NCBI GenBank assembly: GCA_003327425.1
Contig: QOQW01000013.1
Coordinates: 61,351-125,350 of the forward strand
Direction: 5' to 3'
Length of the DNA stretch: 64,000 nt
From: Candidatus Ozemobacter sibiricus
Lineage (GTDB): Bacteria > Muiribacteriota > Ozemobacteria > Ozemobacterales > Ozemobacteraceae
Shown here: positions 28,101 to 54,478 of the stretch, in pieces
Position numbering within the stretch: the first letter of the stretch is position 1
How the letters are laid out: every line of letters starts with the position of its first letter
The notes under the pieces: model-generated
What the model was told of the DNA's origin: nothing
Seen by the model: the letters and a program-made list of their open reading frames with translations, nothing else
Databases searched by the model: none
Translations under genes and position numbers: made by a program

Positions 28101-31100
28101 AATGCCGAGCTGCTCGGGATCGGCCGCATCGACGTAGGCCGCGGTGAAGCCGGCCTCCCGCCACCCCACCCAGCACCCGTTGCTCTCCGAGACCGGCCAG
28201 CCATTGGGATTGCCCCGCGCCCGCCCTGAAACGAGAGGGTCGCTGTCGCTGACCGCCTGCACGGTGTCATTGCGCCATTGCGACTGGTGGAAGACCCCGA
28301 ACCATCCGGTCGGTGCATCGGGGCCATAGAACTCGCAGTCGCCCAGCCGGACCGCCTGGTTGCCGACGCTGGCCAGCACGGTCAGGCGAACGAACCGCGC
28401 CGCCACCGCCGGGAAGCGGGCTTCGGTCATCCGGCGCCCGGGCCTCGCCTCGAACTCGCCCACCGGCTGGAACGGCCCGTCGGGCCCGGCCATCGTTACC
28501 TCGACCCGGAACCGGCGCACCTGCGCCGCCGGGTCGGGGCTCGCCGTCTGCACCACGATCCGATCGAGCACCACCGGCCAGCTGCCGGGCAGGCCGAACA
28601 CCACCGCGTGCGGCGGCGGCGCGCCGGCATAGGCCCCCTGCGAACCTTCGATCTCATAGCGCCCATCGAGCAGCTCCGGCAATCCGGTCCACGCCGGGCT
28701 GCCAGAGGCGATCCAGCCACCCCGGACGGCCGCGTTCAGTGCGAACGTGAAGAATTGAGGACAGACCACGACCACCCGCTTGCCCTGCTCGACCAGCGCT
28801 TGCAGCGCTCGATGGGTCTCGGGACGGTCGAGGAAGAACTGGCAGGGATGCGTGATCCCCTCGATGATGATGGTGTCGAACCGAGCAGCTTGCGAAGCCG
28901 CCCAGGAGACGGCGGGGGACGTCAGCACCGGCAGCCGCAGGGTCTGGGTGCCGGTCCAGGCTTCGAAGTCGACCGCGCCCAGCAAAACGTTCCATGAGGT
29001 TTCGAGTTCGACCAGCAGCGGCGCCCCCGCCGCCAGATCGGGCACCGGCCACGCCCAGTCGCTCCATTCCTCCCATGAGCGCAGTCGCCAGCCGGTCACC
29101 GCCTCCCCGTTCACCTTCACTTTCAGAGAGCGCTCATCGAGCGAAAGACCGCGCATGATCAACCGCCCTTCGCGAGTGGCGACGGGAACGGTCAGACGCG
29201 CCGACCAGGTGGCGCCGACCGGCGGCGGGAAGTCCCGCCGAGGAGAAGCGCCGAGATGCAGGCACGATTGCAACCAGAGCGGTGCATCTTCTTGCAGGCG
29301 CAGCGAGACCAGATGCTCGTTGGGCACCGCGAACAGATCGTAATCGCGCCGGCCGCCGACCAGACACAGCACCCGGCTCGGAGAAGCGACCTGCTCATGC
29401 CAGGTCAAAGCCAGATCGAGCCGATCGGGCGTGCCCCCTTCCAGGCCCAGCAAGCCGGCCCCCGGAACATCGATGGTGTACGCGGCCCATGCTCCTGCCG
29501 GCACCAACGGCGACGACAGCGGCGTCGCCACATCGACCACCGGCTCCGACGTCGTGGCGACGGTCGGTTGCCACCTGGCCCAGGCCGCCGCCAGCCAGTC
29601 GGGGGGCCCAGCGGCCTCCGGCTTCGCCCCGGCCTCGGCCACCGACCACTGCACGCCCGGGCCCGACCAGGCATGCAGACGGAAGACGGCTTGCAACGGC
29701 GCGCGGGCCGCCCGGTCGCCGCCCGACCGCACGACCGCATAGTATCGTGCTCGCCGGGGGAGCACCACCCGGCCCGCCTCGCGCGAGCGATTCGTCTGGT
29801 CGCAAACCTTCAGCGGCGCGGCCGCCGCATCCGTGCCGGCCTCCCTGATCTCGACGATGGGGTCGGTGTGGCCGTCGAGGGCGGTCAGATCGAGTTCGAG
29901 CAGCCCCGGCCCGATGTCGCCCAGGTCGATCCATTCACGATCGCCCTCGGGGTAGAGATGGAAAGCGAAGCTGGCGGGCAGGCTCACCGTGCGGGCCTGC
30001 GTGGCCGCCGCGTGGTCGAACGAAGGCAGGCCGACCGTCGCCGTTTCGGGCCAAAGCCCAACGGTACGCACGATCGCCTGGTAGGGCGTCATCGACTCGG
30101 CATTGTGGAATTGGTAGCCATAGCCGTTCTCGTTGATCCCATGGCCGCCATCCATGACCCGGAAGACGAACGACGCCGGTGCCTGCACCGTGAAACGCCC
30201 CACCAGAGGATCGTCGACCGGCGCGGTGAAGGTCTCGATGGGGTTGCCGTTGGCATCGAGCACCTCGAGCCGGGGGGCCACGGGCCCGGCCAGATCGGGA
30301 ATCTCGATCTCGAGCATGGTCGGACCGCTTCCTGGCACCTCGACCCGGAAATGATCGATATCTCCCGCCGGGAAGATGGTGTCGGCCACGGGCTGGCCCA
30401 ACGTCACCAGGAACGCCTGATCAGGACTGCCATGGGGAGCGGTCGGGGTGACGACGGGCGTATAGGTCACCCGCAGGGAATACGGCCCCGCCCGGTTGTT
30501 GTAGTGATAACTGTAGTTTTGCTCACCGGTTCCGGTTCCCCCATCAATCACTTCGAGCCAGTAGCGGCCGGGCTCTTTGAGCGACGCTTCGAGCCTGACC
30601 ACATTGCTTTCGGGCCCCATGGCCGAGCCGATCTCCTGTTGCTGGGGATTGAACAGGCGCAACCGGGGGCAGGTCGGGCCCAGAACGGCATCGCATTCGA
30701 TCTGCAGCCGCCCCCGGCCCGGCGTGGGCACTTCGAAGGTGAACCAGTCGTTGTCGCCAACCGGGAAGAGGTGCGCCATCATACGTTCGCCCAAGGTCAG
30801 CGACGTCGCCGAAGCCATGGTGTCGTTGGGCTCGCCCGGATCGGGCACCTCCTCGAACCGCACGAACCCTCGATATTCGAGCGGGGAACAGACGTTGTTG
30901 TAGTGGTAGGCGTAGCCCTGCTCCCCTTTCCCGCGCCCGCCGTCGATGACCCGCAGCCGGTAGGCGCCCGAAGCCACCGCCGCCACGAGCACTCCGGGCT
31001 CGCCCCGCGGATGATCGGCCGCTTCGAGATCGCGGCCGCTTTCGTCGCGCAACAGCAGATGAAGGGCGATCATTTCCGAGGGGTGGTCGACGCGAATCGT

Positions 31101-31748
31101 GACCCACCCTCGTTTCCCGGCCGGAATGGTGAAGCGGTACCAATCCTCGTCAGCCGTGGGGACCAGTCGCCCCGTGAAGGCGCGGTTCAGCTCGATCGGG
31201 CTGGCCGCGTCTGGCGACCCATTTGGCTCGTGCTCATCGGGCAGGGGGGTAACCTTCACGGTCAAACGATAGGGGGCCGTGGCCTCCTGGTTGTTGTAGT
31301 GATAGGCGTATCCTGCTTCGCCGATCCCGTGCGGGCCATCCTGCAAAAGAATGGTGAGACTGGCCGGGTCGCCGAGCCAGGCTCGATACCAGAACGGCTG
31401 CCCCGGCGGCGCTTCGTGGGTGAAAATGGTCTGGCCTTTGGCATCGTACCCGACAAGGCGGGGGTTGATATTGGAAGCCACTTCGTCGGCAGTCACCTCG
31501 ACGGCGATCGGCACCCCGTTGCCCGGGACGGGAATGCGGTAGTAATCGTGATCTCCGACGGGGAAGATCGTTCCGATGATGGGAACGCCCGAAGCGACCA
31601 CCGCGGCCTTTTCGAGAGCGTCGTTCGGCTCGAACTGGTCGGGGGCAGCTGGCAGCGGGCCACACAGGCCACCGACCAGCGCCAACAGCAGGCCCAGGAA
31701 CAGCCGCAGTCCCTGTCTGGCAACCATTCCCATGACTCGTCGCCGCAT
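16176..31748 (-). CDS. giant multidomain surface protein (~5190 aa): signal peptide, 7 PPC (pre-peptidase C-terminal)-like domains, two [GATase1/ThuA-like + F5/8 type C discoidin + ~90-aa] modules, long array of fibronectin type III domains, three C-terminal bacterial Ig-like domains and a C-terminal transmembrane anchor
   Basis: Five tandem repeats starting at residue ~48 have EPND...G.IFP.GD.D.Y.F.VP ... DGG.G.GE.GY.YHYNN...PY.L.V signatures (e.g. FEPNDALEKAAVVASGVPIIGTIFPVGDHDYYRIPVP, GEPNDTMASATSLTLGERMMAHLFPVGDNDWFTFEVP), with two more at residues ~1315-1500. The discoidin-type endings are ARFVRLTVLASVGNQAVRLGDCEFYG and ALRVVVTSNYGHGSEVQLGEIEA. There are many fn3-like units (PPAAAPGNLAATRRGGTVTLRWEPVAEADVAGYEVFR...). 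The C-terminal Ig-like repeats are homologous to those of the 3453-aa protein. The last residues ALIWWSTLIGMLVAAAYCLWW form a TM helix. The ATG at 31748 (MRRRVMGMVARQGLRLFLGLLLALVGG, signal peptide) is preferred over the TTG at 31781; ATG 31733 is also possible. Confidence 0.85.
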   Translation of the reverse strand: MRRRVMGMVARQGLRLFLGLLLALVGGLCGPLPAAPDQFEPNDALEKAAVVASGVPIIGTIFPVGDHDYYRIPVPGNGVPIAVEVTADEVASNINPRLVGYDAKGQTIFTHEAPPGQPFWYRAWLGDPASLTILLQDGPHGIGEAGYAYHYNNQEATAPYRLTVKVTPLPDEHEPNGSPDAASPIELNRAFTGRLVPTADEDWYRFTIPAGKRGWVTIRVDHPSEMIALHLLLRDESGRDLEAADHPRGEPGVLVAAVASGAYRLRVIDGGRGKGEQGYAYHYNNVCSPLEYRGFVRFEEVPDPGEPNDTMASATSLTLGERMMAHLFPVGDNDWFTFEVPTPGRGRLQIECDAVLGPTCPRLRLFNPQQQEIGSAMGPESNVVRLEASLKEPGRYWLEVIDGGTGTGEQNYSYHYNNRAGPYSLRVTYTPVVTPTAPHGSPDQAFLVTLGQPVADTIFPAGDIDHFRVEVPGSGPTMLEIEIPDLAGPVAPRLEVLDANGNPIETFTAPVDDPLVGRFTVQAPASFVFRVMDGGHGINENGYGYQFHNAESMTPYQAIVRTVGLWPETATVGLPSFDHAAATQARTVSLPASFAFHLYPEGDREWIDLGDIGPGLLELDLTALDGHTDPIVEIREAGTDAAAAPLKVCDQTNRSREAGRVVLPRRARYYAVVRSGGDRAARAPLQAVFRLHAWSGPGVQWSVAEAGAKPEAAGPPDWLAAAWARWQPTVATTSEPVVDVATPLSSPLVPAGAWAAYTIDVPGAGLLGLEGGTPDRLDLALTWHEQVASPSRVLCLVGGRRDYDLFAVPNEHLVSLRLQEDAPLWLQSCLHLGASPRRDFPPPVGATWSARLTVPVATREGRLIMRGLSLDERSLKVKVNGEAVTGWRLRSWEEWSDWAWPVPDLAAGAPLLVELETSWNVLLGAVDFEAWTGTQTLRLPVLTSPAVSWAASQAARFDTIIIEGITHPCQFFLDRPETHRALQALVEQGKRVVVVCPQFFTFALNAAVRGGWIASGSPAWTGLPELLDGRYEIEGSQGAYAGAPPPHAVVFGLPGSWPVVLDRIVVQTASPDPAAQVRRFRVEVTMAGPDGPFQPVGEFEARPGRRMTEARFPAVAARFVRLTVLASVGNQAVRLGDCEFYGPDAPTGWFGVFHQSQWRNDTVQAVSDSDPLVSGRARGNPNGWPVSESNGCWVGWREAGFTAAYVDAADPEQLGITVRRTLGRGTLILETQELGYRDNVRPAAWKIANLLDVPPAQLQTLRGGGWFRASAAGRYRLTVRPAAEGRWASAPFVLRPTFWAATSTAEPNQTPGAAVPLPVGDTVEGELFPAGDRDWWRVAVDRPTRLGLWLEPLTYTLDPSLSVKSQADEQALPRTFDGSRRVGFGGVEAGHSLATTTGLYWLGVADAFPPNQATVPYRLALQRVPLPVQHEPDDRPGDAVRLESGVPVTGGVFPDGDVDHFVVEMGTGTLDLTLDPVGTEDLDAQVHVIPEHPTRGGRARVLYLVGGLADFHNLHERIGLPFEVERVTWTASRAATVWDGLDDYVAVIIDGVTDPDQFDLFSNAVQAKIQKYVEGGGRVLLTAPSVSFSELRQARGGRVASFTSQYSDTWKPDRLIDGLSMAGNEHYNGARGWCCVSGGVATPQEIVLVFPDRVPGPIDRLVVHATSQTREARARDVQLYGSTVGEHGPFTLLASLTLPAADGPHVIPIMPTALRALRVVVTSNYGHGSEVQLGEIEALTADSEKRWFGLRLCQLWEANQAVPAAIAAAGMPDPTGGPLQGLPWLDASGWIEDWAAAGFAPVVLHQAATTTRALTVFRRWGQGTLAVDMQNPGGKAQDALLWKVFALLDLPRQRGIAIDSTCGGGPGFPERQRLTLPAGQYQIRVSAADGVGAVGAYSLVATFPAGADRWPLRLTGVQPWSGQMGVHPTTTIRLNFTRMIEAASYRPGGIEVRGSQSGAVPCQAAAEPDGYALVLRPERPFADGETVTVRFAPEFVQDRRGQPVAAAAETSFVIGTTRLQTARLTILLERTGALGAGRQRVLVSGPAVGPPRLTVVWADGRREEIALQAAGPQTWSGELSIAAGAPQGPARLEATGADGTAAPPVPFTVDTVPPPAPRAPPIAQARDQGRVEVGWAAPPAEAGVAGYVLGRAAPGGPASEVARLTRVDQLAHVDQPPTEGAWEYRLAFLDAAGNQGPWSPPVTVDTDRTPPAAAPGNLAATRRGGTVTLRWEPVAEADVAGYEVFRTPAGQELPVGARPLTTVSASVRRADDAPGDGVYDYRVAARDRAGNRGPLATTRIVVDTTPARAALVIADLRPEPLPPVPATAPVEGRLPPGAFTVLATLSERLAGPPSLTLVLADGSTATGAVEWASGSLFFTAAFRVPATAADGFLQFRGEAIDLEGNAGLTLHYSSYVLDTASPTWKIWRDPPHASAIGTVTVFVQADEPLPEAPRLTWTPPGGQPQVLASLTFDYRNNAWRGVLFLATDTPDGEVTFAVTGRDLFGREGTRIREGERFFKDGVPPGPPLDLVVGPGPGGGILLRWKPPLEESPAFYSVYRGASDAVPQTPAARLATEVRDVQYHDREALGSEFAYRVSATDLAGNEGVACQPRTGSSDTTPPPPPEEVKATLLPGGQVRIAWQKPRLEAVDRYRVVREARLRDGRRQLDQIYEGPLREVDDLPRLTGDLVYAVHALDAAANESPPARTATLSYDLTPPVAKIRFAPTFGRRMIPIYGLMSVTWRDLGEVVRPGRLSLTLEFDEPVRDDVGLTWRLEADEVPRPVPLTRRGPTLFEGSLDLPSHLGADLDVRFGLQAADLAGNAAGPLGAEAELLLDSTPPAPLNRLTAVPGPGGVVRVTWAPPATEPEGEPRYLVFRSERPFTASESAQLVAADLKDAAFTDRPPRDGTWYYAATARDRAGHIGSLTPAVAVVTDAVPPAAPTGVEVKVGATVELTWVPGAGTVGGGSAPAAAAVAPLAGQPAGEPVTWRVLASPEPIPAGAGSTTPGVTLIADGLTEPRCSFVPQPWPAIHLAVVAVDAAGNVSDSPAIAPLTIGAKIPAARVRVEPPGPARGACRVRVETTVPLREPPSLWFEPAGRAPLAVALTLEAGSKSRFTGALAVDEKTGDGVGRFLFRGLSEEGLPGTVITEGATLTVDTTPPWLSLAFDPPAPLRTGPVTVRVTPNELLAAPPEVLIAPQGGSPLPVALQPLAAAPPAPAGAGEGAAPLVYVGSFTLPATLPDGQAFLRVSARDLAGNVGTRADPDRVFIDNHPPRPPIDLRAVARPHGRVFLTWQPAPFQARSGPDDVRRWRIYRADRPGVATAAAVRAGEAVGPAFEDGGIPRDGTWYFAVTAVDQAGWESLPSSWVAGLADRRPPPVPAAPTAVPGDEGVTLTWHDPAPAAGTPPDRYEVWVSWHDPVTRQTVEEKVWGPATGGRALHRPLRGGDFSYRVRALDHLDHASAFSPPTLVHYERQAPAATLAFRPPPPWATGSVAVTLETTRALAATPQLTWQWFDDLGEPGASATAIVLQGSGTTWQGRFVLPEAPSLRRIDFAWRGQVTVAGKTYTGTEFLGPASFAIDRAGPEGRLLFTAPDLPRRDRQAILRAGRYPFVLELDEPPARPPTLAFESASGKRVNLPLTRQTDRRWEGVLLIDGATGDGVGQFFLQAVDAAGNQGTSLAEGGTVVVDTTPPGRVARLRAVAFPGGRVRLDWTPPLTATGRPDASANRFRLYRSSQEILDVRGLTPIQSVARTLGTFDEPKGAREVYYAVVAVDEAGNEGPVSLSVMTTIDREPPPPPRHVKAAITETGVVKVSWEPPPGPAPTFYNVYLETFPIVSTAGLTPNARGVPFTYLYGTPNDDGRYYFAVTAVDATLNESAPSESVEVDYRRTLPIASFTIHPDIWLRNGRYEVDLTTSKPLVEPPLVEVKHEKGLVFPLRFAGAGSRWRATLTIDDQLPEGTCGFLFTGKGEGNTVGREISRGPLFHIDRTAPLPPSHLKVVPDDANTPGAVRLTWNLPKLPDRPTEVPHLYRIYRSERPMASLAGQAPVQVVRVQYENMDEYIHHDVPPHDGTWYYCVTSGDLAGNESSPSAVVSVVSSTKVPRLVVRLFTEVGGPVPVDRIGGGPCRVEVRSSQPLASLTLHWYEVTRDEKLAGVVASRTAVPMTERAGGPASEAGLLWEGRLVIDQAAGREVEAAFEARAVGRDGTVGTFITAGRTFWIDTVGPEARIRIPSINTMRIDALANQVVVAPVRGGPIEVTVETLGELAQPPELAWAIDGRDDWQPITLRGFGAFWSGWMEIPHGIASASARFRYRGVDRIGNVSTAIEPRKYERKLDEEGEIARTLESYATTGGVFTIDSVPPEPPIGLQVEQKKLGIAVIKWTEGPGDPRSFNLYRSLTPITTREGLIPVKTGIYAPIIVDDPPVDGNWFYAVTQLDLAGNESEVSETKSIFIDSIKPELKITAVPSGDDFIILADEEAPPEMRIELRFPGGKTMEVDLGGSSGQLQEIQMPGGGPPRRGRVLPQILRQFDGRVEIVVHSPDPAGNEVQQLTSLEAKPVAVETGGRVESADQLVQLEIPAGLVPVVPKGPGEFQRVGGYQNLFFIRYENIPDRPRPAAATAPVDPREPDPLPPSLEVIGTPYRIELNVNTEKPLSLKAGATQADLSQLKELAPKLRLKVPELGSEAVADVDYLASRLKVVKWVPATRDEAEGRTPTGKRGRWEIVEDIEISTGTGEIIAPARDITTYVVVSERTPPTICDLSPAPDSTVKTFRPVIQARLIDKGTGIAQGAENPIALHIDGMPADRAHLKLSTEDPTEVTLTYTPPADLTPGAHIVTLRVQDVVENESVRRWRFVIDNEPPRITSVLPASGTALGVGRPVISVVAADEGGGIDPERTHLTLDGASLTVRFDPVAGRLVAHPPRRLPSGVHRVQVQLEDRGGKKVAQTWDFRTDVEPPEIRLVQPAPGRALDRIDQPLILGVQDRGTGLDPRRLLLDLDGHLLGPSRDLEVTDVFSYDPVLGQVRVQPAGGFRPGPHRVLLCAEDRFGHVQVAVATFAVDVTPPQVTWRAPGPDWQVPAGAVTLQVQEESPGLQIQTAVPYRYDPWSGMLVLLPPATAAGSLEVTLVDAAGFTAVSRIDPTSGKFSVKRGRLLAWWQALIWWSTLIGMLVAAAYCLWWRPPFPPFAARLKP

Positions 31749-31897
31749 CGAAGGACCCTTTGTGAAATCAGACTGCGCCAAACATCATCACGAAGCCCTG
31801 AATGCCATCCCAGCGATGGCCTCGGTACTATCGCGCTTATTTTCGCCCGAAAAGCGCCTCAATGCAATAGCGGGTCCCAGCCGACCGGGCCCCCCCT

Positions 31898-31969
31898 GAA
31901 GACCCCATAAAAACAACTGGGGGAGCGACAGCCTGTCCGAAGCCCCCACCAGGGGCCAGCGGCCCCTGG
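31898..31969 (-). terminator. putative rho-independent terminator downstream of the Fe-S protein gene / upstream of the giant operon
   Basis: There is a perfect 9-bp inverted repeat CCAGGGGCC-AGC-GGCCCCTGG (31949-31969). On the minus strand a second GC-rich imperfect hairpin (GACAG-G-CTGTC core) and an AGTTGTTTTTAT tract follow. The geometry is not canonical. Confidence 0.4.
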
Positions 31970-32059
31970 ACCCCTTCTCACCGCCAGCCGAACGCGATGC
32001 GTCCGGCTGGAGAAGCGGCCGCTTCGCGGGCTAGAGCAGCCGTTCAGGCGATCAGCCGA

Positions 32060-32875
32060 TCACCAGTCTTCGGCGACTTCGGCCAGGCCCCGTCGGTCGC
32101 GCAGGGCGATGGCATCCTTGGGGCAGACGGCCCGGCAGACGCCGCATCCGACGCATTGTTGCGGGGCGATCACCGCTTGGCCGGCCTCGCGGTCGAAGGC
32201 GAGCGCATCGTAGAAACAGCGACGCAGGCAGGCCCGGCACCCGATACAGCGCTCGGGATCGACCATCGCCACGTATTCGGCCTTCCACATCACCTTGACC
32301 GCCTGCTCCTTGAACTGGGTGCGCCAGGCCATGCAGTCGCGGTCGCAATTGCAGATGGCCCCGATGTACGGCGTGCCGAAGGTCCAGATGCTGTGAACGC
32401 ACCCTGCCTGGTCGAGGTGCCGCACCAGAGTCGTCGCCTCGACCGGCGAAATGCGATCGAAATCCCGGAAGTCGGGCGCCTCACGCAGCACGTGGGTCAG
32501 ATCCATGCCGATGCCGAGGCAATACCGCAGCTCCTTGCCGGTGGTCACCCGACGGCAGATGCAGGGCAGGCGCACGACCATGGTGAACCGCTCCAGGATG
32601 CGCTCGACATCTTCGAGCGGCACGATCTGCCCGAAATGGGCGCTCTTGAAATACCGGGTGGCCAGCGGCCAGGCCAGGAAGCGGTAGATCTTCGGATACC
32701 GACGCCGCCAGGCCATGGCCCGTGGCAGACTCTCGCGCAGCACACCCGGAAACTCCTGCAGGAAGGCCTTCAGTTTCTCTTCCGAAGAGACCTGCCGAAA
32801 GACTTCTTCCGTGTAGTTCCGGGCGTTCTCGTACCACTTGCCGCCCTCGCCATGCTTTGTACAAAACTCACACAT
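32060..32875 (-). CDS. Cys-rich iron-sulfur protein with two 4Fe-4S ferredoxin-type motifs
   Basis: The C-terminal CIGCRACLRRC...CVGCGVCRAVCP matches two CxxCxxCxxxC(P) clusters. There are additional Cys clusters (CEFC, PCIC, CNCDRDC). It is co-directional with and immediately upstream of the giant operon. Confidence 0.6.
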   Translation of the reverse strand: MCEFCTKHGEGGKWYENARNYTEEVFRQVSSEEKLKAFLQEFPGVLRESLPRAMAWRRRYPKIYRFLAWPLATRYFKSAHFGQIVPLEDVERILERFTMVVRLPCICRRVTTGKELRYCLGIGMDLTHVLREAPDFRDFDRISPVEATTLVRHLDQAGCVHSIWTFGTPYIGAICNCDRDCMAWRTQFKEQAVKVMWKAEYVAMVDPERCIGCRACLRRCFYDALAFDREAGQAVIAPQQCVGCGVCRAVCPKDAIALRDRRGLAEVAEDW

Positions 32876-33068
32876 GTGTCACTGCCTGGCTCGTGTCGTT
32901 GCAGGCATCCTACCGGAAAACGAGGTATTCGGCAAATGGGGCCGCACACCCCGGCTTGTTCTCGGTCAGGCGCGACGCGGCCAACGCCGCCGACCGGCGG
33001 GCGGGAAAAGGCACCACGGGTTCGAGCGCGCTCTGACCGGGCAGCGAAGATCCCTGATGCTCGATCGC

Positions 33069-34472
33069 TCAGAAGGCGCTCCCGACCTGGGCGTTGATGA
33101 ACGCCATCGTCTCGGGAATCTTGCCCTGGGTCAGGCCATGGATCCGTTCGAGGTTGGGATAGGCGCGCAGCCAGCGGTCCGGTGTCTCCAACAGGTGGGT
33201 TTCATATTCCACCAATCGGGTGAGGGAGGGATTGCGCCCCACCGCGCTGTCTTTGATCCGGCGCAAGAACGCGCGGAACTCATCCTTCCCTTGCGGGCGG
33301 GTCGGGAGAACCGCTCCGATCCGGTAGAGGTCAATGAGTTTCAAAATCGTCTGCAGCTGGACCTTCCCGCCTTTGTAGCGAGCCAGATCTCTCTGGAGCA
33401 GGCTGTAATAGTAATACCGCGCCTGGATGAGCGAACCGACGAAGTATTCGTAGATGATGCGGAACATGCCAAAATCCTGGAGAATCGCACCACCCAACTG
33501 CGCCATGCTCTGCGGATTGGCCGCCAACCGACCTTGCTGTCGCAGCACGTCGAACTGCGGCACGAGATACGCCACCACCTGAAAGCAGGTCTTGGCCAGA
33601 TCGTACCAGGCCTTGGCCACTTCCAATCGCTTCTCGTACTGGCGGGCCAGATCGATCGACGGGACCCGGCTCAACTCCGTGCGCAACTGACGGATCTTCT
33701 CTTCCTGGGTACGGAAATAGTCGGATGACACGAAACCGCGAAGCACCAGCGCAATGCGGCCCAACGCCCGCAGGGTTTCCACATTTTCGCCCAGGTCGGC
33801 GGCGATCTGGGCCAAGCTGGCGCCAGCCCGCCCCAGAGCGGCAGGAATCTGCGCATCGATGGCCGCTTCATCGACCGTATAGGCCAGATTGATTTTCCTG
33901 GGAGCGGCCGGCGAGAACAACAACAGCGAGGTCTGGGCTTCGCCCTGGCCGGTCTGAGCCGGCCACTGGAAGGTCAACCCGCAGTTGACCAGATTGCGCA
34001 GCTCGGAATCGCCCGAAGCCGCCAGCCGTTCGCCAGCCAACCGGAAGCGGAAGCGACGGATGGATTCATACAAGGGTTTCATCGATGGATCGAGCGTGCC
34101 ATCGACATTCGGATCGATCACCCCCCAGGGGGGGCGGCGATCTTCGACCATGGAGAAGAAGACCGACCGTCCATCGGTGACATCCTGCCACCCGCCGGAG
34201 GAAGAGGTGTCGACTCCCAGGGTTTCTATGCCGTAGGGGTTGATCATCAGCTCTTCGATCAGATCTTCGGATACCTTCTGGGATAGGATGACCGCCTGAA
34301 GGTGTTCCGAGGTGAAGGTCACCTCTTTGCGGCCAGAGCGGATGAACGTCAGCAAGGTCGTCCCGATCAACGCGCAGAGCCCCACCGCCACCAGGATCTC
34401 GACCAGGGTGACCGCCCGGCCGCGACCAGGAATTCGTTTGGCCCTGGAATTACCAGTCGGGATTCCCATCAT
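33069..34472 (-). CDS. pseudopilin/minor-pilin-like protein (467 aa) with N-terminal prepilin-type hydrophobic segment (GspK-like size)
   Basis: The N-terminus MMGIPTGNSRAKRIPGRGRAVTLVEILVAVGLCALIGTTLL resembles the prepilin class-III G-(F)TL(I/V)E motif. Its start overlaps the upstream stop as ATGA (34469-34472). Confidence 0.5.
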   Translation of the reverse strand: MMGIPTGNSRAKRIPGRGRAVTLVEILVAVGLCALIGTTLLTFIRSGRKEVTFTSEHLQAVILSQKVSEDLIEELMINPYGIETLGVDTSSSGGWQDVTDGRSVFFSMVEDRRPPWGVIDPNVDGTLDPSMKPLYESIRRFRFRLAGERLAASGDSELRNLVNCGLTFQWPAQTGQGEAQTSLLLFSPAAPRKINLAYTVDEAAIDAQIPAALGRAGASLAQIAADLGENVETLRALGRIALVLRGFVSSDYFRTQEEKIRQLRTELSRVPSIDLARQYEKRLEVAKAWYDLAKTCFQVVAYLVPQFDVLRQQGRLAANPQSMAQLGGAILQDFGMFRIIYEYFVGSLIQARYYYYSLLQRDLARYKGGKVQLQTILKLIDLYRIGAVLPTRPQGKDEFRAFLRRIKDSAVGRNPSLTRLVEYETHLLETPDRWLRAYPNLERIHGLTQGKIPETMAFINAQVGSAF

Positions 34473-35074
34473 CGGAGTCCTCCCAGGTTCATCAACCCGA
34501 TGTGGCCAAGGAATTGGAACTCGTTCCGATCTTGAACCACGGTCACATTCACCTGCACGGAATTTGGCGACAGACTGGTGAAGGAGAGAGAGCGCACCGA
34601 TTCGAGCAGGACCTTCTCGTTGGACGCATTGTACGCCCCGGAATAATCGGTACGATAGGCCAGCAGGCGATACACCGGAACCTTCAGCCGTTGGGCCAGA
34701 GGATCGTTCGGCTCGAGGTAGAGGATGGTCACCCGATTGGTGATGTCTTTGAAAATCAAGTAGGGAAGGGTTTCCCCCAGCACGGGGCGAACGAGGTCGG
34801 TGCCCTCGCGAATGAGGGCCATGGTCTGGTCGAAGGCGCGACGGGCTTCCAATTGCAACTGGACCTGCTGGCTGAACGTCCGTTGGGAGAGGCTGAGATG
34901 CTGGATCAATCGAACCCCCACCGCCCCCAGGATCATCATGATGGCCAGCCCCACCATGACCTCCACCAGGGTCCAGCCCTGGGAAGGAGGTAGGTTGCAG
35001 CCCAAGGGCCGCCTTTCATGCCCATGCGCCCAAGACCAGAGAAGCGAGCGCTGAGACCACGGCGGCCGCTTCAT
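34469..35074 (-). CDS. prepilin-type N-terminal cleavage/methylation domain protein (type II secretion / type IV pilus pseudopilin-like)
   Basis: The SQG|WTLVEVMVGLAIMMILGAVGV segment fits the prepilin peptidase site (G at -1, E at +5) followed by a hydrophobic helix. The ATGA overlap with the upstream gene is at 35071-35074. Confidence 0.6.
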   Translation of the reverse strand: MKRPPWSQRSLLWSWAHGHERRPLGCNLPPSQGWTLVEVMVGLAIMMILGAVGVRLIQHLSLSQRTFSQQVQLQLEARRAFDQTMALIREGTDLVRPVLGETLPYLIFKDITNRVTILYLEPNDPLAQRLKVPVYRLLAYRTDYSGAYNASNEKVLLESVRSLSFTSLSPNSVQVNVTVVQDRNEFQFLGHIGLMNLGGLR

Positions 35075-36570
35075 GGCGTGGTGCCGGGCGGGGTCGTCAG
35101 GGGCGGCATCTGATTGGCCAGACGCGCCTCTTCTTCGGCTTTGAGCTCTTCATACCTGGCCTGAGCGAGAGAAATGGCCCGTCTCACCAACGGAGGAAGG
35201 GACGCCAGGATCTGCTGGGCGGCAGCCAGAGCAGCCTGGGTGGCCGGCGTCATCGCATAGTCGGCGATCGAGCTCATGATGCCATTCATGGTGTTGATTT
35301 CGGCCAGGAGATCGGTGAGGGCCCGGGTCCAGATGTCGACCACATTTTTGGCCGCATCTGATGTCGACAGCCCAGCCACGATATCCGCGGCATTGCGAAA
35401 GTGGGCGTATTTCCGTTCCAGGCTGTCGACGAGATTCTTGTACCCGCTCACCATGGTGGCGCTGACGGTTTCCTGGATCGATCTGGCGGCCTCCTCGCTG
35501 GGAGCGTTGCGCACCCGCTCGCCAGCCGCTGCCACCACCTCGTTCATCGCCCGATAGGTGGCGACCCGTGCTTGCGCATCCGCTTCCAGAGCGGCACGAA
35601 CCACCGGGTCATCCCAGGAACGGTTGCCGAGTTCCACGGCGTCCATTCCTTCCTGGGCTCTAGCCAAGGATATTCGCGAATTCCGCAGAACCTCGTTCAT
35701 CAGGTCGTCGAGACTGGACGTTGGGTTGCTACTTCCACCCGAGGTCGGGGGCAACCCCGGAAACCCCTCGGCAGGGGGAGTGGAGGACTGGCCGCCGGTT
35801 CCGGTGGTGGGGGGGGCGAACACGGGATTCGGCCCCGGGCCACCGGCGGTCGGCAGCTCCCCGTTCTGTGGCGGGAGGATGACGGGAGGCGAGGCCGCGG
35901 GGTTGGTCGGCCCGGACACGCCATCGGGCGGGATGTTCACCAACCCTGGCGAAAACGACCTTGGCCGACGCGCGTGCATTTTGTCGAGGATGCTGGGAAG
36001 GTCGCTCAACCCGACGAGTTCCCATCCCAGGTCATCGCTGCGCTTCTGGTTGGCCTCCCGCTCCTGCAGGAGGCGATCGACATGCTGCGAAAACCGGCTG
36101 GGGCCGGCCGCCGTGGGAAAATCAACAGGATCGCCCTGGCAGAAGAAATTGATGGAGATGCGATTGGAGATTTCCAGGAGATCGTCCTCGAAGGCCACCC
36201 GCCAGAAAAAAAGGCGGGTCTGCCCGCTGAGATGCGTGCGCACATAGATATCGGCCTGACGCTCCCGCCCAGGCGTGTTTTCGACGAACAGATCGTAGAT
36301 ACCGCCTTGCAGGGGAACATTGTTCTCGCGGTACGGGGCATGCGCGAACGGCCGGTCTGGCCATGGGAGGGAGTAGACACGGGCATGAAGTTTCGCCATG
36401 GCGGAATACGCCATCAGGAACGCCCAATGATTGGTAGTGGTGTGGTAGATCTGCGATTTGGCCCCTTGCTGCAAGGTGGCCACCGAGATGACCACGCCTG
36501 CCAGCATGATGAGCCCTACCAGCACCAGGGGAAGGGCCAGACCCGTGCGCCGCCCAAGGGAGGTACACAT
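35071..36570 (-). CDS. membrane-anchored Pro-rich protein, first gene of the pseudopilin-like tricistron (pilus/secretion accessory candidate)
   Basis: The start is set at ATG 36570 (MCTSLGRRTGLALPLVLVGLIMLAGVVISVATL), which is preceded by a strong AGGAGG RBS at a 7-8 nt spacing. The track start at 36693 lacks an RBS. The protein has an N-terminal TM helix, a central proline-rich region (PPVILPPQNGELPTAGGPGPNPVFAPPTTGTGG) and a helical C-terminus. Confidence 0.5.
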   Translation of the reverse strand: MCTSLGRRTGLALPLVLVGLIMLAGVVISVATLQQGAKSQIYHTTTNHWAFLMAYSAMAKLHARVYSLPWPDRPFAHAPYRENNVPLQGGIYDLFVENTPGRERQADIYVRTHLSGQTRLFFWRVAFEDDLLEISNRISINFFCQGDPVDFPTAAGPSRFSQHVDRLLQEREANQKRSDDLGWELVGLSDLPSILDKMHARRPRSFSPGLVNIPPDGVSGPTNPAASPPVILPPQNGELPTAGGPGPNPVFAPPTTGTGGQSSTPPAEGFPGLPPTSGGSSNPTSSLDDLMNEVLRNSRISLARAQEGMDAVELGNRSWDDPVVRAALEADAQARVATYRAMNEVVAAAGERVRNAPSEEAARSIQETVSATMVSGYKNLVDSLERKYAHFRNAADIVAGLSTSDAAKNVVDIWTRALTDLLAEINTMNGIMSSIADYAMTPATQAALAAAQQILASLPPLVRRAISLAQARYEELKAEEEARLANQMPPLTTPPGTTP

Positions 36571-36910
36571 TATTTTGACCTCCTGCTTAGTAAACCAGGG
36601 GGAAGGTCTGGAAGTATCCTCAGTTAAGACATAGCACGAAAAATCCCTTACTGGGAAGACCGATCGCCAACTTCCTCCAGTCATTCTGAGCATTGAAACC
36701 CCCTTTTGGTGTCAGTTCTTGCCCAGGGTGACAGCTCGCTTCGGGTTTTTGTGACCAGGGCGGGAAAAAGCCCGTCGTCGGGCCGGTTGTACGCGAGGCT
36801 GGTCCGCCCTGGCCATGCCGCCGCAGGGTGCGCGGGGGAGGAACGCCCGCGGCTGGTCGATCGGATGCCCAGCGGCAACCGGGTTCGCAGGCTCCTGGCC
36901 TCCTCGCCCA

Positions 36911-38143
36911 TCAGGGTCGCGCCTGGACCGCCCGCGCCACGGTCTCTTCGTACTGCCGGGCGCACCGACGATTGTGACGGCTCCAGGCTCGCGTGAGCCG
37001 GTGGTCGCGCCAGATCAGATCGGTAATACGGGAGCGCTCGGGACCACCATCTCCGAGGTAGGCGTAATTCATCAGGGCATGGATCGCCAGGCACCGGTAA
37101 TAGATATACGCCGCCGGCTGGGCGGCATACCCGAGCACGCTCGGCACCAGCAATTTGCACATGACATACGGGAAGGTATCGTACTGGCTGACAAAGGCGA
37201 GATTCCAGGAGGTGTACAAGTCGGACCAGGCTCGCGGGCAGGCCGTGCGCAGCAGGATGGCCCGCCGATCGGCCGTCCAGATGCTCGGGCCTTCGCCGGT
37301 CGCCGGATTCTCGCGTGGCGCCCCGGGCGGATATCGGGCCAGAGTCAGGCCGGCGCGGGCATTGCCGGGGTAGCCTTCCACGATCTCCCAGGCCACCGCC
37401 TCCAGGATATTGAGAGGCAGCAGCACCCTCATGAAATCGGGCGGCACGACGCCCCGCCGGTGGCATTCGACGAACCGGGCGTTCAAATGCTCGATCGACA
37501 GCAGTTTGACATGATCGAACAGCCGGAAGTTCTTGCTGCCCCAGATGAACCGCCGCCCCTGCCGCCAGTGGTCCAGGGTAAATGCCAGGAACCGCCAGTC
37601 TTCGGCCATCAGGCGGGTCAGGGCCTCCAACGCCCAGGCGAAGGTCACCACATCGGGCAGCACCCGCGTCCCTTCCGTAGCCAGGCGGGCCGCCAGCACG
37701 GGGAAGCGGAGACTCCAGGCCCTGACCGACCGCGCACCGCCCGCTTGGCAGAACGGAGGTCGATCACCGGCGGCCTCCGCCCCGCCCCCGGGTCCGTCCT
37801 CCCCTGGTGGCGCCCCGCGGGGCGATTCCGATTCCTCATCGACCCTGTCGGCGCCGACCACCTGATCGAGGAACCCTGCCAGATAGGGATTGGCCGCGGC
37901 CAGGCGGGCCACCGCATCGACGAACCGTTCGAGAGCGGCCCGGTCGAGCCCGGGGGGGCGCAGCCGGTCTTCGGCCTTCGTCAGGGCGGCGGTCACCCAT
38001 CGCCCCGCCCCGTCCAGCAGCCGCCATTCCCGATAATGGCGGACCAGCATCGCCTCGATCGCGGCCGGATCGAGCCCGGCCAGGGCGGCTTTGACCGCCG
38101 CCGCCACCCGCCCGACTCCCGCTCCCGCCGCCAGCGCCGTCAT
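36911..38143 (-). CDS. hypothetical protein (410 aa)
   Basis: This is a long ORF with complex composition in its C-terminal 250 aa (FIWGSKNFRLFDHVKLLSIEHLNARFVECHRRG...). The opposite-strand ORF 36815..39511 is Arg/Pro-rich junk. Confidence 0.45.
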   Translation of the reverse strand: MTALAAGAGVGRVAAAVKAALAGLDPAAIEAMLVRHYREWRLLDGAGRWVTAALTKAEDRLRPPGLDRAALERFVDAVARLAAANPYLAGFLDQVVGADRVDEESESPRGAPPGEDGPGGGAEAAGDRPPFCQAGGARSVRAWSLRFPVLAARLATEGTRVLPDVVTFAWALEALTRLMAEDWRFLAFTLDHWRQGRRFIWGSKNFRLFDHVKLLSIEHLNARFVECHRRGVVPPDFMRVLLPLNILEAVAWEIVEGYPGNARAGLTLARYPPGAPRENPATGEGPSIWTADRRAILLRTACPRAWSDLYTSWNLAFVSQYDTFPYVMCKLLVPSVLGYAAQPAAYIYYRCLAIHALMNYAYLGDGGPERSRITDLIWRDHRLTRAWSRHNRRCARQYEETVARAVQARP

Positions 38144-52981: not shown

Positions 52982-54424
52982 TCAGGGCGCGTCGGGGGCG
53001 TTCAGGAAATCGAACATCCAGTCTCCAGAGCTCTCCCAGGCCTGGCCTTGAGGGCCGGTCCAGGTGTGGTCGGTGGTGAGCAGTCCGCCCTCGACCTGCC
53101 GGTCGGCCTGGTGGGTCACGGTCTTCCCGCGGTCGGTCGTCCAGGCAGAGTTGACCGAGCCCCCGTCGACCGTGGTCTGGCCGGTGACATGGCGCGTCTG
53201 GCCATCCGGCGTAGTATAGGTCTTGTCGGACGTGAAGGTCGAGCCGTTTTTGACGGTGGTACCGGTCACCGTGGTGGTCCGACCCTGGGGCCCCGTCCAG
53301 GAGCGGTCATAGGCGGCCTGGTTGCCGTCAACGGTGGTCTGGCCCTGGAAAGAGGCGGTCTTCCCGCCTTCGCCCCTCCAGGTCTTGTGCGTGGTCGTGG
53401 TCGAACCCTCACGGGTACGGGTTCCCTGCACCTCGACCGTCTGGCCGCCTGGGCCGGTCCAGGTGCCTTGCTGCTGCCAGGTCTGTCCGCGATGGGTCAC
53501 CGTGCCATCGTAGGTCTGGGTGCGTCCCTGCGGCCCGGTATGGGTGCCCGTGGTCCACCATGTCCCCTCGCGAGCGCCGCCCGGGCCTTGGCTCTGGCCA
53601 CTCACCGCTCCCTGCCATTGGGACGCGCGGCCGGCCGGCCCGACGAGGGCGCCCTGAGCGGCCAGGCCGCGAGGGCCGCCGGCCAACTGGTTCATCCGTT
53701 CGGCCAGCTGGGGGAAATCCCTCTGGAGGGCGCCGAGCTGGTCGGGGCTCATCTGGCTCCAGTGCTGACGCAACTCCTGGAGACGGGCTTGCCACGCCTG
53801 CGGATCGCCGCTGCCGCGAGCGGCCATGAACGCTTTGATCTTCTCCTGCAAAGCCCCCATCTGGGGATTGCCCTGGACTCGTTCCTGCCACTTCTGGCGA
53901 AACTGCTCCCAGCCCTGACCGCCATGGGGATCGCCCCAGCGGGCCCGCATCCGCTCCTGCCAGGCCTGCCAGCGCTCGCCGCCCCCCTGACCGGCTTGCA
54001 TCCGTTCCTTCCACTTCTGCAGGAAGCCCGCGCCCGGCCCGCCCTCCTGGTTCCTCTCCCGCATTCGCTCTGGCCAGCGCTCCCGTAGGCGCTCCACCCC
54101 GGGCGGCAAGCGGTCGGCGCCTTCTCCCCCCGGGCCACCTCCTTGCTGCCGTCGCTCCTTCCACTGCTGGAACCGATCGGCCGTGGCCCCGCCTTCCTCA
54201 CCGGCCTGGCCGCCCGCCCGGCGCTGCTGCCATCGCTCCTTCCAGGCGGCCCCCGCGCCCGCCCCCGTTCCGCCCGCCTCCTGCCCGGCCGGACGATTCT
54301 GCCAGCGGGCCCCGGCGCCCCCGGCACCGCCCTGCCCCTGGCCCCATCTGCCTTGGGCCGCCACCGCGACCGTCATGCCGAATAGCATCACCCCGCAACC
54401 CATTCCCACTAGCCAAGCACGCAT
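52982..54424 (-). CDS. secreted repetitive protein: N-terminal half of ~17-aa W-x-E-R/Q-rich repeats ending in Gly runs, C-terminal half Thr/Gly-rich beta-type repeats
   Basis: An AAGGAG RBS sits 7 nt upstream of ATG 54424. The signal peptide is MRAWLVGMGCGVMLFGMTVAVAAQG. The repeats include AAWKERWQQRRAGGQ, FQQWKERRQQGGG, FLQKWKERMQAGQGGG, RWQAWQERMRARWGDPHGG and WEQFRQKWQERVQGNP, followed by GTWTGPGGQTVEVQGTRTREG...TGPQGRTTTVTGTTV. Confidence 0.55.
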   Translation of the reverse strand: MRAWLVGMGCGVMLFGMTVAVAAQGRWGQGQGGAGGAGARWQNRPAGQEAGGTGAGAGAAWKERWQQRRAGGQAGEEGGATADRFQQWKERRQQGGGPGGEGADRLPPGVERLRERWPERMRERNQEGGPGAGFLQKWKERMQAGQGGGERWQAWQERMRARWGDPHGGQGWEQFRQKWQERVQGNPQMGALQEKIKAFMAARGSGDPQAWQARLQELRQHWSQMSPDQLGALQRDFPQLAERMNQLAGGPRGLAAQGALVGPAGRASQWQGAVSGQSQGPGGAREGTWWTTGTHTGPQGRTQTYDGTVTHRGQTWQQQGTWTGPGGQTVEVQGTRTREGSTTTTHKTWRGEGGKTASFQGQTTVDGNQAAYDRSWTGPQGRTTTVTGTTVKNGSTFTSDKTYTTPDGQTRHVTGQTTVDGGSVNSAWTTDRGKTVTHQADRQVEGGLLTTDHTWTGPQGQAWESSGDWMFDFLNAPDAP

Positions 54425-54478
54425 CGATACTCTCCTTTTTTCCGACGATAGGGCCGCCTGGCAACCCAGGCCAGCGCC

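What the first reader, a model, noticed from the sequence alone, without database searches (positions are those of the whole stretch)
33069..36570. Three translationally coupled pseudopilin-like genes co-directional with and upstream of the giant operon
Three minus-strand genes are joined by ATGA overlaps (35071-35074 and 34469-34472). The first encodes an N-terminal TM plus Pro-rich protein with a strong AGGAGG RBS. The second has a textbook prepilin class-III site (…SQG|WTLVEVMVGLAIMMIL). The third has a related N-terminus (GRAVTLVEILVAVGL) and GspK-like size. No pilin ATPase, platform protein or secretin is present in the window, so this may be a minor-pilin set recruited to the export or display of the downstream giant proteins, analogous to pseudopilin-dependent secretion.
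Basis: partly seen in the sequence, partly recalled or inferred. Interest (0 to 1): 0.55.

Follow-up and report, generated by a model that had tools for sequence, protein, structure and literature searches.

The report
Riflebacteria-specific minor-pilin-like gene trio
Three overlapping genes in this Candidatus Ozemobacter sibiricus (Riflebacteria) window encode pilin-like envelope proteins that form a conserved, multi-copy cassette found only in that phylum. Other copies often sit next to a sensor phosphatase, and the cassette has no consistent link to the giant genes downstream of it here.

Summary
Three minus-strand genes, A (35071-36570), B (34469-35074) and C (33069-34472), are joined by ATGA overlaps, and A has an AGGAGG ribosome-binding site.

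- **B** is a prepilin: its N_methyl score is above Pfam's threshold, and Thr+2 and Glu+5 are invariant in 26 homologues.
- **C** is also a prepilin at the family level. Glu+5 is invariant and 23 of 27 members hit N_methyl. Its model shows a pilin head plus a roughly 265-residue helical domain.

All three families carry names only from Riflebacteria. The A-B-C cassette recurs in about 37 copies, 2-4 per genome.

The proposed link to the giant proteins is not conserved. Only 4 of 37 copies have a protein of at least 1500 aa downstream, and those proteins are unrelated to each other. About half of the copies lie next to a FecR lipoprotein and a CHASE2-PP2C sensor phosphatase.

No secretion ATPase, platform protein, peptidase or secretin lies in the window. 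One T2SSE-family ATPase lies 6.5 kb from another copy.

Best reading: a GspK/I/J-style tip or priming trio for a type IV filament machine encoded elsewhere. This is a new variant of a known kind, of moderate interest.

The parts
36579..36584 (-). AGGAGG ribosome-binding site, 8 nt upstream of the ATG of gene A
   Evidence: Read from the sequence.
35071..36570 (-). Gene A (499 aa, OZSIB_0059). It has a GspK-like N-terminal anchor (RRTG|LALPLVLVGLIML, no Glu5), a pilin-type α/β domain (about residues 13-146), a helix (159-199), a disordered Pro-rich linker (202-284) and a C-terminal helical bundle (287-486).
35071..35074 (-). ATGA overlap of the A stop codon with the B start codon
34469..35074 (-). 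Gene B (201 aa from the ATG; a TTG at 35005-35003 would give a 10-residue leader). It is a small type IV pilin-like protein with a conserved globular domain of about 140 aa. The public gene call (161 aa) starts after the cleavage site and so lacks the signal.
   Evidence: N_methyl 22.8 bits against a gathering score of 21.2. Thr+2 and Glu+5 invariant and position -1 Gly or Ala in 26 sequences. 32 homologues, those that carry an organism name being Riflebacteria. Gene call.
34919..34984 (-). Class III (prepilin) signal and α1N segment of B, residues 31-52: SQG|WTLVEVMVGLAIMMILGAV
34469..34472 (-). ATGA overlap of the B stop codon with the C start codon. The 4-nt overlap is conserved in 29 of 37 copies.
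33069..34472 (-). Gene C (467 aa). It is a large pilin-like protein with an α1 helix (23-77), a three-stranded sheet (142-186) and a helical-repeat (TPR-like) domain (202-466).
34353..34418 (-). Prepilin-like signal and α1N segment of C, residues 19-40: RA|VTLVEILVAVGLCALIGTTL (Ala at -1, Val at +1, Glu at +5)

Best explanation
The three genes encode a lineage-specific set of type IV filament minor (pseudo)pilins that act together as a heterotrimer.

Inferred mechanism:
- All three are inserted into the inner membrane by their N-terminal hydrophobic helix.
- B and C are cut after Gly or Ala at -1 by a prepilin peptidase encoded elsewhere, which exposes Glu+5.
- A lacks Glu5, as GspK does, and serves as the cap.
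- The three α1 helices bundle into a GspK/I/J-like tip or priming complex. This complex starts a pilus or pseudopilus built by an ATPase and platform machine located elsewhere in the genome, and then sits at its end.
- There it displays the unusual helical domains of A and C as a binding surface.

The ATGA overlaps couple translation, which fits a complex of fixed stoichiometry.

Shown here: the prepilin signals, the conservation, the coupling, the pilin-type folds, the GspK resemblance of A and the cassette's distribution.

Inferred only: processing, complex formation, incorporation into a filament, the partner machine and the ligand.

The cassette is an independent unit. Its position upstream of the giant genes in this window is probably incidental. 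Its recurrent neighbour elsewhere is a FecR lipoprotein plus a CHASE2-PP2C sensor phosphatase, which probably regulates the cassette or senses through it.
For: - B passes Pfam N_methyl. Thr+2 and Glu+5 are invariant and position -1 is Gly or Ala across the family.
- In the C family, Glu+5 is invariant, 23 of 27 members hit N_methyl and 13 of 27 hit TIGR02532.
- The B and C N-terminal regions are homologous (hhalign probability 94%).
- The C model (pLDDT 82) has a long kinked α1 helix plus a β-sheet.
- The A family N-terminus RRG|VALP resembles E. coli K-12 GspK QRG|VALL, and both lack Glu5.
- Weak sub-threshold hits point to GspJ/ComGF for B and to GspI/XpsI/ComGE for C.
- A-B-C is kept as a cassette in about 37 copies from Riflebacteria MAGs, with the 4-nt B/C overlap in 29 of 37.
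- Other N_methyl gene clusters (L033, L038) and a T2SSE-family ATPase (L040) exist in the phylum.
Against: - No assembly ATPase, platform protein, prepilin peptidase or secretin lies in the window or directly adjacent to any copy. The nearest is a T2SSE-family ATPase 6.5 kb from the L040 copy. Their presence in this genome could not be checked.
- A has no sequence-level match to any pilin family. Its model is only moderately confident (pLDDT 65).
- The large helical domains of A and C have no counterpart in known minor pilins.
- B's structure was not modelled.
- The window's C scores below the N_methyl threshold and has Ala at -1 and Val at +1.
- Known tip sets have four or five pilins, or lie within gsp or pil operons.
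Confidence: 0.55

Rival explanations
1. The trio is not part of a filament. It is a membrane-anchored periplasmic complex that uses pilin-like N-termini only as anchors. It works as the input or output partner of the neighbouring FecR lipoprotein and CHASE2-PP2C (SpoIIE-type) sensor phosphatase, forming a five-component envelope-signalling module that feeds a partner-switching cascade.
For: - FecR and/or CHASE2-SpoIIE genes lie directly beside the trio in about 18-20 of 37 copies.
- They occur upstream in some lineages and downstream in others, and also beside the divergent subfamily, whose C is 28-29% identical.
- The only full-length CHASE2-SpoIIE orthologue found in the metagenome scan (L049) again has FecR-CHASE2SpoIIE-A-B-C.
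- The FecR partner is an exported lipoprotein.
- STAS genes lie nearby in L004 and L008.
- No filament machinery lies directly adjacent to any copy.
- A and C carry helical-repeat domains typical of protein-protein scaffolds.
Against: - About half of the copies, including both in this genome, lack the sensor pair.
- Strict conservation of Gly/Ala at -1 and of Glu+5 is expected for peptidase processing and filament packing, not for a simple anchor.
- Minor-pilin operons placed next to their regulators are already known, for example fimS-algR beside fimU-pilVWXY1E (PMC5979040). Adjacency therefore need not mean that the trio is a signalling part.
Confidence: 0.2
2. The trio is a minor-pilin set dedicated to the export or surface display of the downstream giant PPC/fn3/Ig-like proteins. 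It would act either as a pseudopilus piston or as a tip complex that carries a large adhesin, as minor pilins carry PilY1.
For: - The trio has the same orientation as the 5201-aa, about 880-aa and 3453-aa genes and lies upstream of them.
- In three related Ozemobacteraceae loci a 1914-aa secreted VWA protein follows gene C directly. This recalls the VWA-containing PilY1 that docks on minor pilins (PMC7541494).
Against: - 33 of 37 copies have no protein of at least 1500 aa downstream.
- The VWA protein shows no similarity to the window's giants.
- A ferredoxin-like gene and gaps of 193 and 278 bp separate the trio from the giant gene, in contrast to the 4-nt overlaps inside the trio.
- The paralogous copy in the same genome has unrelated neighbours.
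- The 5201-aa protein has its own signal peptide and a C-terminal membrane anchor.
Confidence: 0.08
3. The pilin-like N-termini are convergent signal-anchor sequences, and the three proteins are unrelated envelope proteins of unknown role.
For: - A has no pilin-family sequence hit.
- The window's C is below the N_methyl threshold.
- The globular parts of all three have no sequence relatives in the PDB.
Against: - Thr+2 and Glu+5 are invariant in B and Glu+5 in C, and position -1 is Gly or Ala, across dozens of sequences down to 26% identity.
- The family-wide N_methyl and TIGR02532 hits.
- The pilin-type α/β folds and the GspK match.
Confidence: 0.05

Closest known systems
GspK-GspI-GspJ minor pseudopilin tip complex of the type II secretion system (PDB 3ci0; P. 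aeruginosa XcpX-V-W, PDB 5vtm)
   Same: - Three co-encoded, translationally coupled pilin-like proteins.
- One large member lacks Glu5 and has an RG|VAL N-terminus (A compared with E. coli GspK). Its pilin domain superposes on GspK and XcpX.
- The other two members have canonical G/A|xT(L)xE signals.
- There are weak GspJ-like hits for B and GspI-like hits for C.
   Different: - No Pfam T2SSK or NCBIfam GspK, GspI or GspJ hit reaches threshold.
- The gene order is K-like first.
- The trio is not embedded in a gsp operon, and no GspG/H, E, F, D or O gene is nearby.
- A and C carry C-terminal helical domains of roughly 200 and 265 residues, and A has a Pro-rich linker. Gsp proteins have neither.
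- There are several paralogous copies per genome.
Type IVa pilus priming complex FimU-PilVWXE with PilY1, and its regulator FimS-AlgR (PMC7541494, PMC5979040)
   Same: - A minor-pilin operon located away from the core machine genes.
- A proposed tip or priming role.
- A signalling system encoded next to the operon.
- In three loci a large VWA protein follows the pilins, much as pilY1 does.
   Different: - Three proteins instead of four or five.
- No PilY1 β-propeller family hit.
- The neighbouring regulator is a FecR lipoprotein plus a CHASE2-PP2C phosphatase, not a two-component system.
- The families are unrelated at the sequence level beyond the α1N segment.
Verru_Chthon cassette proteins A-D (TIGR02596, TIGR02598, TIGR02599, TIGR02600). 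That these are lineage-specific, multi-copy pilin-like cassettes is recalled from my own knowledge of the TIGRFAMs descriptions.
   Same: - A lineage-restricted, multi-copy cassette of proteins with prepilin-type N-termini and no adjacent machinery.
- 22 of 26 B-family members give their most frequent weak hit to cassette protein C.
   Different: - The hits cover only about 50 N-terminal residues and fall far below the cut-off (best E-value 7e-7; cut-off 256.5 bits; the window's own B scores 13.1 bits).
- Three genes rather than four.
- A different phylum.
FecR-like protein plus CHASE2 sensor pairs, for example the Burkholderia 'BiofilmReg' operon (PMC5192318)
   Same: An exported FecR-domain protein is encoded next to a CHASE2-domain transmembrane sensor.
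   Different: - Here the output domain is a SpoIIE/PP2C phosphatase, not a histidine kinase.
- Here the pair is linked to a pilin-like trio, which that paper does not report.
- The window's own copy lacks the pair.

Membership tests
Type IV pilin-like proteins (prepilin class III signal; Pfam PF07963 N_methyl, TIGR02532) | A short basic leader ending in Gly (rarely Ala), then a hydrophobic stretch of about 20 residues with Glu at +5 | tested here: met
   - B: 22.8 bits against a gathering score of 21.2. Thr+2 and Glu+5 are invariant.
- C: the window member scores 11.4 bits, below threshold. Its motif A|VTLVE is intact, Glu+5 is invariant, and 23 of 27 members hit N_methyl.
- A: not met. It has no Glu5 and no hit.
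Type IV pilin-like proteins (prepilin class III signal; Pfam PF07963 N_methyl, TIGR02532) | A long N-terminal α1 helix packed on an antiparallel β-sheet | tested here: met
   - C model (pLDDT 82): helices 23-49 and 55-77, strands 142-186.
- A model (pLDDT 65; 66-79 over the sheet): helices 13-38 and 48-65, five strands 80-146.
- B was not modelled.
Type IV pilin-like proteins (prepilin class III signal; Pfam PF07963 N_methyl, TIGR02532) | Cleavage and N-methylation by a prepilin peptidase, and assembly by a PilB/GspE ATPase with a PilC/GspF platform encoded in the same genome | not testable with these tools
   - None is in the window, and no prepilin peptidase, platform protein or secretin lies within about 10 kb of any of the 37 copies.
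- A T2SSE-family ATPase exists in one Riflebacteria MAG, 6.5 kb from a trio (L040).
- The rest of this genome could not be searched.
GspK (T2SS minor pseudopilin K; Pfam T2SSK) | A prepilin-like N-terminus that lacks Glu5 (G|VAL...) | tested here: met
   The A family consensus is RRG|VALP and the window A reads RRTG|LALP. E. coli K-12 GspK reads QRG|VALL.
GspK (T2SS minor pseudopilin K; Pfam T2SSK) | A pilin domain with the GspK fold | tested here: met
GspK (T2SS minor pseudopilin K; Pfam T2SSK) | Sequence membership: a T2SSK or NCBIfam GspK model hit, including the helical insertion domain | tested here: not met
   None of the 12 A-family members gives a Pfam or NCBIfam GspK hit, at E ≤ 1 (Pfam) or E ≤ 0.1 (NCBIfam). 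A is therefore GspK-like in design but is not filed as a GspK family member.
GspK (T2SS minor pseudopilin K; Pfam T2SSK) | Encoded in a gsp operon with GspG, H, I and J and the secretion core | tested here: not met
   No gsp core genes are in the window or in the flanks of the trio copies.
T4aP minor pilin/PilY1 priming set (FimU-PilVWXE plus PilY1) | Four or five minor pilins plus a PilY1 adhesin with a C-terminal β-propeller | tested here: not met
   - There are only three pilin-like genes.
- There is no PilY1-family hit.
- A VWA protein of 1914 aa follows the trio in only 3 of 37 loci.
Verru_Chthon cassette (TIGR02596, TIGR02598, TIGR02599, TIGR02600) | Scores above the family cut-offs over the full length | tested here: not met
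   The best E-value is 7e-7, over about 50 N-terminal residues only, against a cut-off of 256.5 bits.

The most novel reading that the evidence does not exclude
The pilin-like trio, the FecR lipoprotein and the CHASE2-PP2C phosphatase together form a previously undescribed envelope-sensing device. In it, a GspK/I/J-style pilin complex, with or without a filament, carries large helical receptor domains. That complex would be the mechanical or ligand-binding input to a partner-switching phosphatase. This would wire type IV filament parts directly into Ser/Thr-phosphatase signalling in an uncultured phylum.
Probability: 0.15. Interest if true: 0.7.

Novelty: new variant of a known kind. Interest (0 to 1): 0.4.

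Why it matters
- **Annotation.** It assigns about 200 clusters of 'hypothetical' proteins, whose named members are all from Riflebacteria, to the type IV filament superfamily. It also corrects a public gene call that cuts off the prepilin signal of gene B.
- **Design.** It shows that a minimal three-protein, GspK/I/J-like design can exist as a free-standing, multi-copy cassette. The helical domains on A and C are unlike those of any characterised minor pilin, which widens the known range of tip-complex architecture.
- **A testable lead.** The recurrent link to a FecR plus CHASE2-PP2C pair bears on two open questions: what CHASE2 sensors detect, and how pilus tips feed into signalling.
- **A caution.** Proximity to giant surface-protein genes in a single genome is not evidence of a secretion relationship.

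Tried and rejected
- **PDB profile searches.** Searches with all three families found only α1N pilin similarity for B and C and coiled-coil noise for A.
- **AFDB fold libraries.** These were not available.
- **Profile comparison.** hhalign of A against B and against C detected no homology.
- **Pfam and NCBIfam on the A family.** Nothing was found.
- **Rfam search of 31500-37500.** No RNA element was found.
- **Promoter and terminator scan.** No convincing terminator lies between the trio, the ferredoxin gene and the giant gene. The transcription units remain undefined.
- **Motif scan of all held loci.** Searches for GspE/PilB Walker A and prepilin-peptidase GGGDxK motifs found nothing. A later blastp showed that the regex missed one variant ATPase in L040, with Walker A GPHGSGKM.
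- **Metagenome scan with a CHASE2-SpoIIE profile.** It mostly returned generic PP2C domains. Only one true orthologue (L049) came back, so the reciprocal association test is weak.
- **Literature searches.** They found no description of pili or of these genes in Riflebacteria or Ozemobacter.
- **Upstream genes.** The 410-aa gene and the TPM-domain genes upstream were rejected as part of the system because they are absent beside the other copies.


Full report
**Source and gene map**

The window comes from a Candidatus Ozemobacter sibiricus (Riflebacteria) MAG, GCA_020725785.1 contig DYEH01000053.1. Exact protein look-ups place genes A and B as OZSIB_0059 and OZSIB_0058. The minus-strand genes, in order of transcription, are:

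| Gene | Coordinates | Note |
|---|---|---|
| TPM-domain genes and a 410-aa protein with no family | upstream, to 36911 | not part of the system |
| A | 35071-36570 | 499 aa |
| B | 34469-35074 | 201 aa |
| C | 33069-34472 | 467 aa |
| 4Fe-4S dicluster protein | 32060-32875 | 271 aa |
| giant protein | 16176-31781 | 5201 aa; PPC, F5/8 type C, fn3 and Ig-like domains |
| ORF | 13888-16530 | about 880 aa |
| giant protein | 3530-13891 | 3453 aa |

These assignments rest.

**Check of the observation**

- AGGAGG lies at 36584-36579, 8 nt before the ATG at 36570.
- ATGA overlaps lie at 35074-35071 and 34472-34469.
- A has an N-terminal hydrophobic helix and a Pro-rich stretch.
- B carries SQG|WTLVEVMVGLAIMMIL.
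- C carries GRA|VTLVEILVAVGL.

The window contains no GspE/PilB, GspF/PilC, prepilin peptidase or secretin.

The intergenic gaps there are 193 bp and 278 bp, in contrast to the 4-nt overlaps inside the trio.

**Gene B**

- Pfam N_methyl scores 22.8 bits, above the gathering score of 21.2.
- There are 32 homologues. Those that carry an organism name are Riflebacteria, and they are 46-89% identical.
- In a 26-sequence alignment, Thr+2 and Glu+5 are invariant. Position -1 is Gly or Ala and position +1 is mostly Phe.
- A globular domain of about 140 residues ending in QFLAHIGLMNLGGLE is highly conserved.
- The public gene call (161 aa) starts at a GTG after the cleavage site and so lacks the signal.
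- An in-frame TTG at 35005-35003 would give a typical 10-residue leader. The ATG of the ATGA overlap gives a 33-residue leader. Which start is used is not settled.

**Gene C**

- The window member scores only 11.4 bits on N_methyl.
- The family has 31 close hits and 214 representatives at E ≤ 1e-3 among 1.84 billion cluster representatives. Most full-length members are about 430-500 aa, and the named ones are Riflebacteria.
- The family has the consensus RRA|FTLVE with invariant Glu+5.
- 23 of 27 members hit N_methyl and 13 of 27 hit TIGR02532.
- The N-terminal roughly 90 residues are homologous to those of B (hhalign probability 94%).
- The AlphaFold model (pLDDT 81.8, pTM 0.75) shows a long kinked α1 helix (23-77), a small three-stranded sheet (142-186) and a large all-helical domain (202-466).

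**Gene A**

- No Pfam or NCBIfam family matches any of 12 members. There is no profile similarity to B or C.
- Its N-terminus has the family consensus RRG|VALPxxLLALI and reads RRTG|LALPLVLVGLIML in the window. It has the same design as E. coli K-12 GspK (QRG|VALLIVLMLLAL), read from NC_000913.3. Both have a prepilin-like junction without Glu5.
- The model (pLDDT 65) gives:
  - an α1 helix (13-65);
  - a five-stranded sheet (80-146);
  - a helix (159-199);
  - a disordered Pro-rich linker (202-284);
  - a helical bundle (287-486).

**Comparative genomics**

A scan of one genome per GTDB species with the C profile returned 37 loci. All are from Riflebacteria or Ozemobacteraceae MAGs, apart from two vaguely labelled ones. 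I built HMMs for A, B, C, FecR and CHASE2-SpoIIE and searched six-frame ORFs of all held loci. The results were:
- A, B and C co-occur in essentially every locus.
- B and C are almost always adjacent on the same strand, and the 4-nt overlap is kept in 29 of 37 copies.
- A is upstream on the same strand in the main subfamily. In a divergent subfamily, whose C is 26-35% identical, A is sometimes on the opposite strand.
- Genomes carry 2-4 copies. For example, AS27yjCOA_28 has four, nHGRbin4 has three, and O. sibiricus has two (the window and L007).

**Link to the giant proteins**

- Only the window and L013, L014 and truncated L015 have a protein of at least 1500 aa downstream.
- In those three loci it is a 1914-aa signal-peptide protein with a VWA domain. 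It shows no similarity to the window's giants.
- All other copies have unrelated neighbours. These include DNA polymerase III α, LplA, Met-tRNA synthetase, AFOR and glycolysis genes.
- The 5201-aa protein has its own signal peptide and a C-terminal membrane anchor.

A dedicated role in exporting the giants is therefore not supported. The VWA case keeps alive the general idea that some copies dock a large adhesin, as minor pilins dock PilY1 (PMC7541494).

**A recurrent neighbour**

- In about 18-20 of 37 copies, a 200-aa FecR-domain protein and a roughly 620-aa CHASE2-SpoIIE (PP2C) membrane sensor lie directly next to the trio. They are on the same strand in all but two of these copies.
- The FecR protein is a lipoprotein with an LFVAGC lipobox.
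- The pair lies upstream of the trio in some lineages and downstream in others. It also accompanies the divergent subfamily (L043, L044).
- The one full-length CHASE2-SpoIIE orthologue recovered from metagenomes (L049) shows the same five-gene arrangement.
- FecR-CHASE2 pairing as such is known (PMC5192318). Its link to pilin-like genes is not.
- Both copies in this genome lack the pair. The window holds only generic SpoIIE genes about 5 kb away on the other strand.

**Assembly machinery**

- No ATPase, platform protein, peptidase or secretin lies directly adjacent to any copy.
- One Riflebacteria MAG encodes an unusual T2SSF-domain/T2SSE ATPase fusion 6.5 kb from a trio (L040).
- Other N_methyl gene clusters exist in the phylum (L033, L038). 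Type IV filament components are therefore present in the phylum.
- The remainder of this genome could not be searched with the tools available.

**Interpretation**

The best-supported reading (confidence about 0.55) is a GspK/I/J-style heterotrimer of minor (pseudo)pilins. It would prime and cap a filament assembled by a machine encoded elsewhere. Translational coupling would fix the stoichiometry, and the helical domains of A and C would form the exposed surface.

- Shown here: the signals, the conservation, the coupling, the folds, the GspK resemblance and the distribution.
- Inferred only: processing, complex formation and filament incorporation.

The main rival (about 0.2) is a non-filament envelope complex that works with the FecR/CHASE2-PP2C sensor.

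**Novelty**

These are uncharacterised families. Every member that carries an organism name comes from Riflebacteria, and none meets the sequence criteria of GspK, GspI or GspJ, the T4aP minor pilins or the Verru_Chthon cassette proteins. They do share the design of minor-pilin tip sets. I rate this a new variant of a known kind, of moderate interest. The sensor-phosphatase association is the most novel lead.

Noticed in passing
L040:1961-3481 (-): A 506-aa protein fuses an N-terminal T2SSF-like domain (residues 12-99) to a T2SSE secretion ATPase. Its Walker A is GPHGSGKM and it has CxxC...CxxC motifs. It lies 6.5 kb from a divergent trio copy. It is the only type IV filament ATPase seen in any held Riflebacteria locus.
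   Followed up: partly
L013:11458-17202, L014:5021-10765, L015:11518-13028 (truncated): A 1914-aa signal-peptide protein with a VWA domain (residues about 335-481) follows gene C directly in an Ozemobacteraceae subclade. It may be a PilY1-like adhesin partner. It is unrelated to the window's giants.
   Followed up: partly
L003, L004, L008, L010, L011, L014, L015, L021, L024-L028, L043, L044, L049 (both genes); L013, L029, L032 (FecR only): A FecR lipoprotein gene and a CHASE2-SpoIIE (PP2C) sensor gene lie immediately beside the trio, either upstream or downstream. STAS-domain genes lie nearby in L004 and L008. This suggests a partner-switching signalling link.
   Followed up: partly
window 34469-35074 (-): The public gene call for gene B (OZSIB_0058, 161 aa) starts at a GTG downstream of the prepilin cleavage site. 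The deposited protein therefore lacks the class III signal.
   Followed up: yes
L021:1-6420: A tandem arrangement: an A-C pair without B, followed by a complete A-B-C-FecR-CHASE2SpoIIE set.
   Followed up: no
window 3530-13891 (-) and 16176-31781 (-): The 3453-aa protein has an internal, not C-terminal, CHU_C (T9SS-type sorting) domain at residues 2792-2870, plus FlgD_ig, Big_13 and CarboxypepD_reg domains. The 5201-aa protein has a signal peptide, PPC, F5/8 type C, fn3 and Big_5/Big_13 domains, and a C-terminal membrane anchor.
   Followed up: partly
window 32060-32875 (-): A 271-aa protein has a C-terminal 4Fe-4S dicluster domain and a Cys-rich N-terminal part with no family hit. It lies between the trio and the giant gene. 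Ferredoxin-like genes also lie downstream of the second trio copy (L007) and in L004 and L008.
   Followed up: no
window 52982-57157 (-): Adjacent 892-aa and 480-aa proteins have no Pfam family.
   Followed up: no
L033:12845-18858 and L038:1231-3784: Further gene clusters have N_methyl (prepilin) signals near trio copies. Riflebacteria therefore carry several different pilin-like gene sets.
   Followed up: partly
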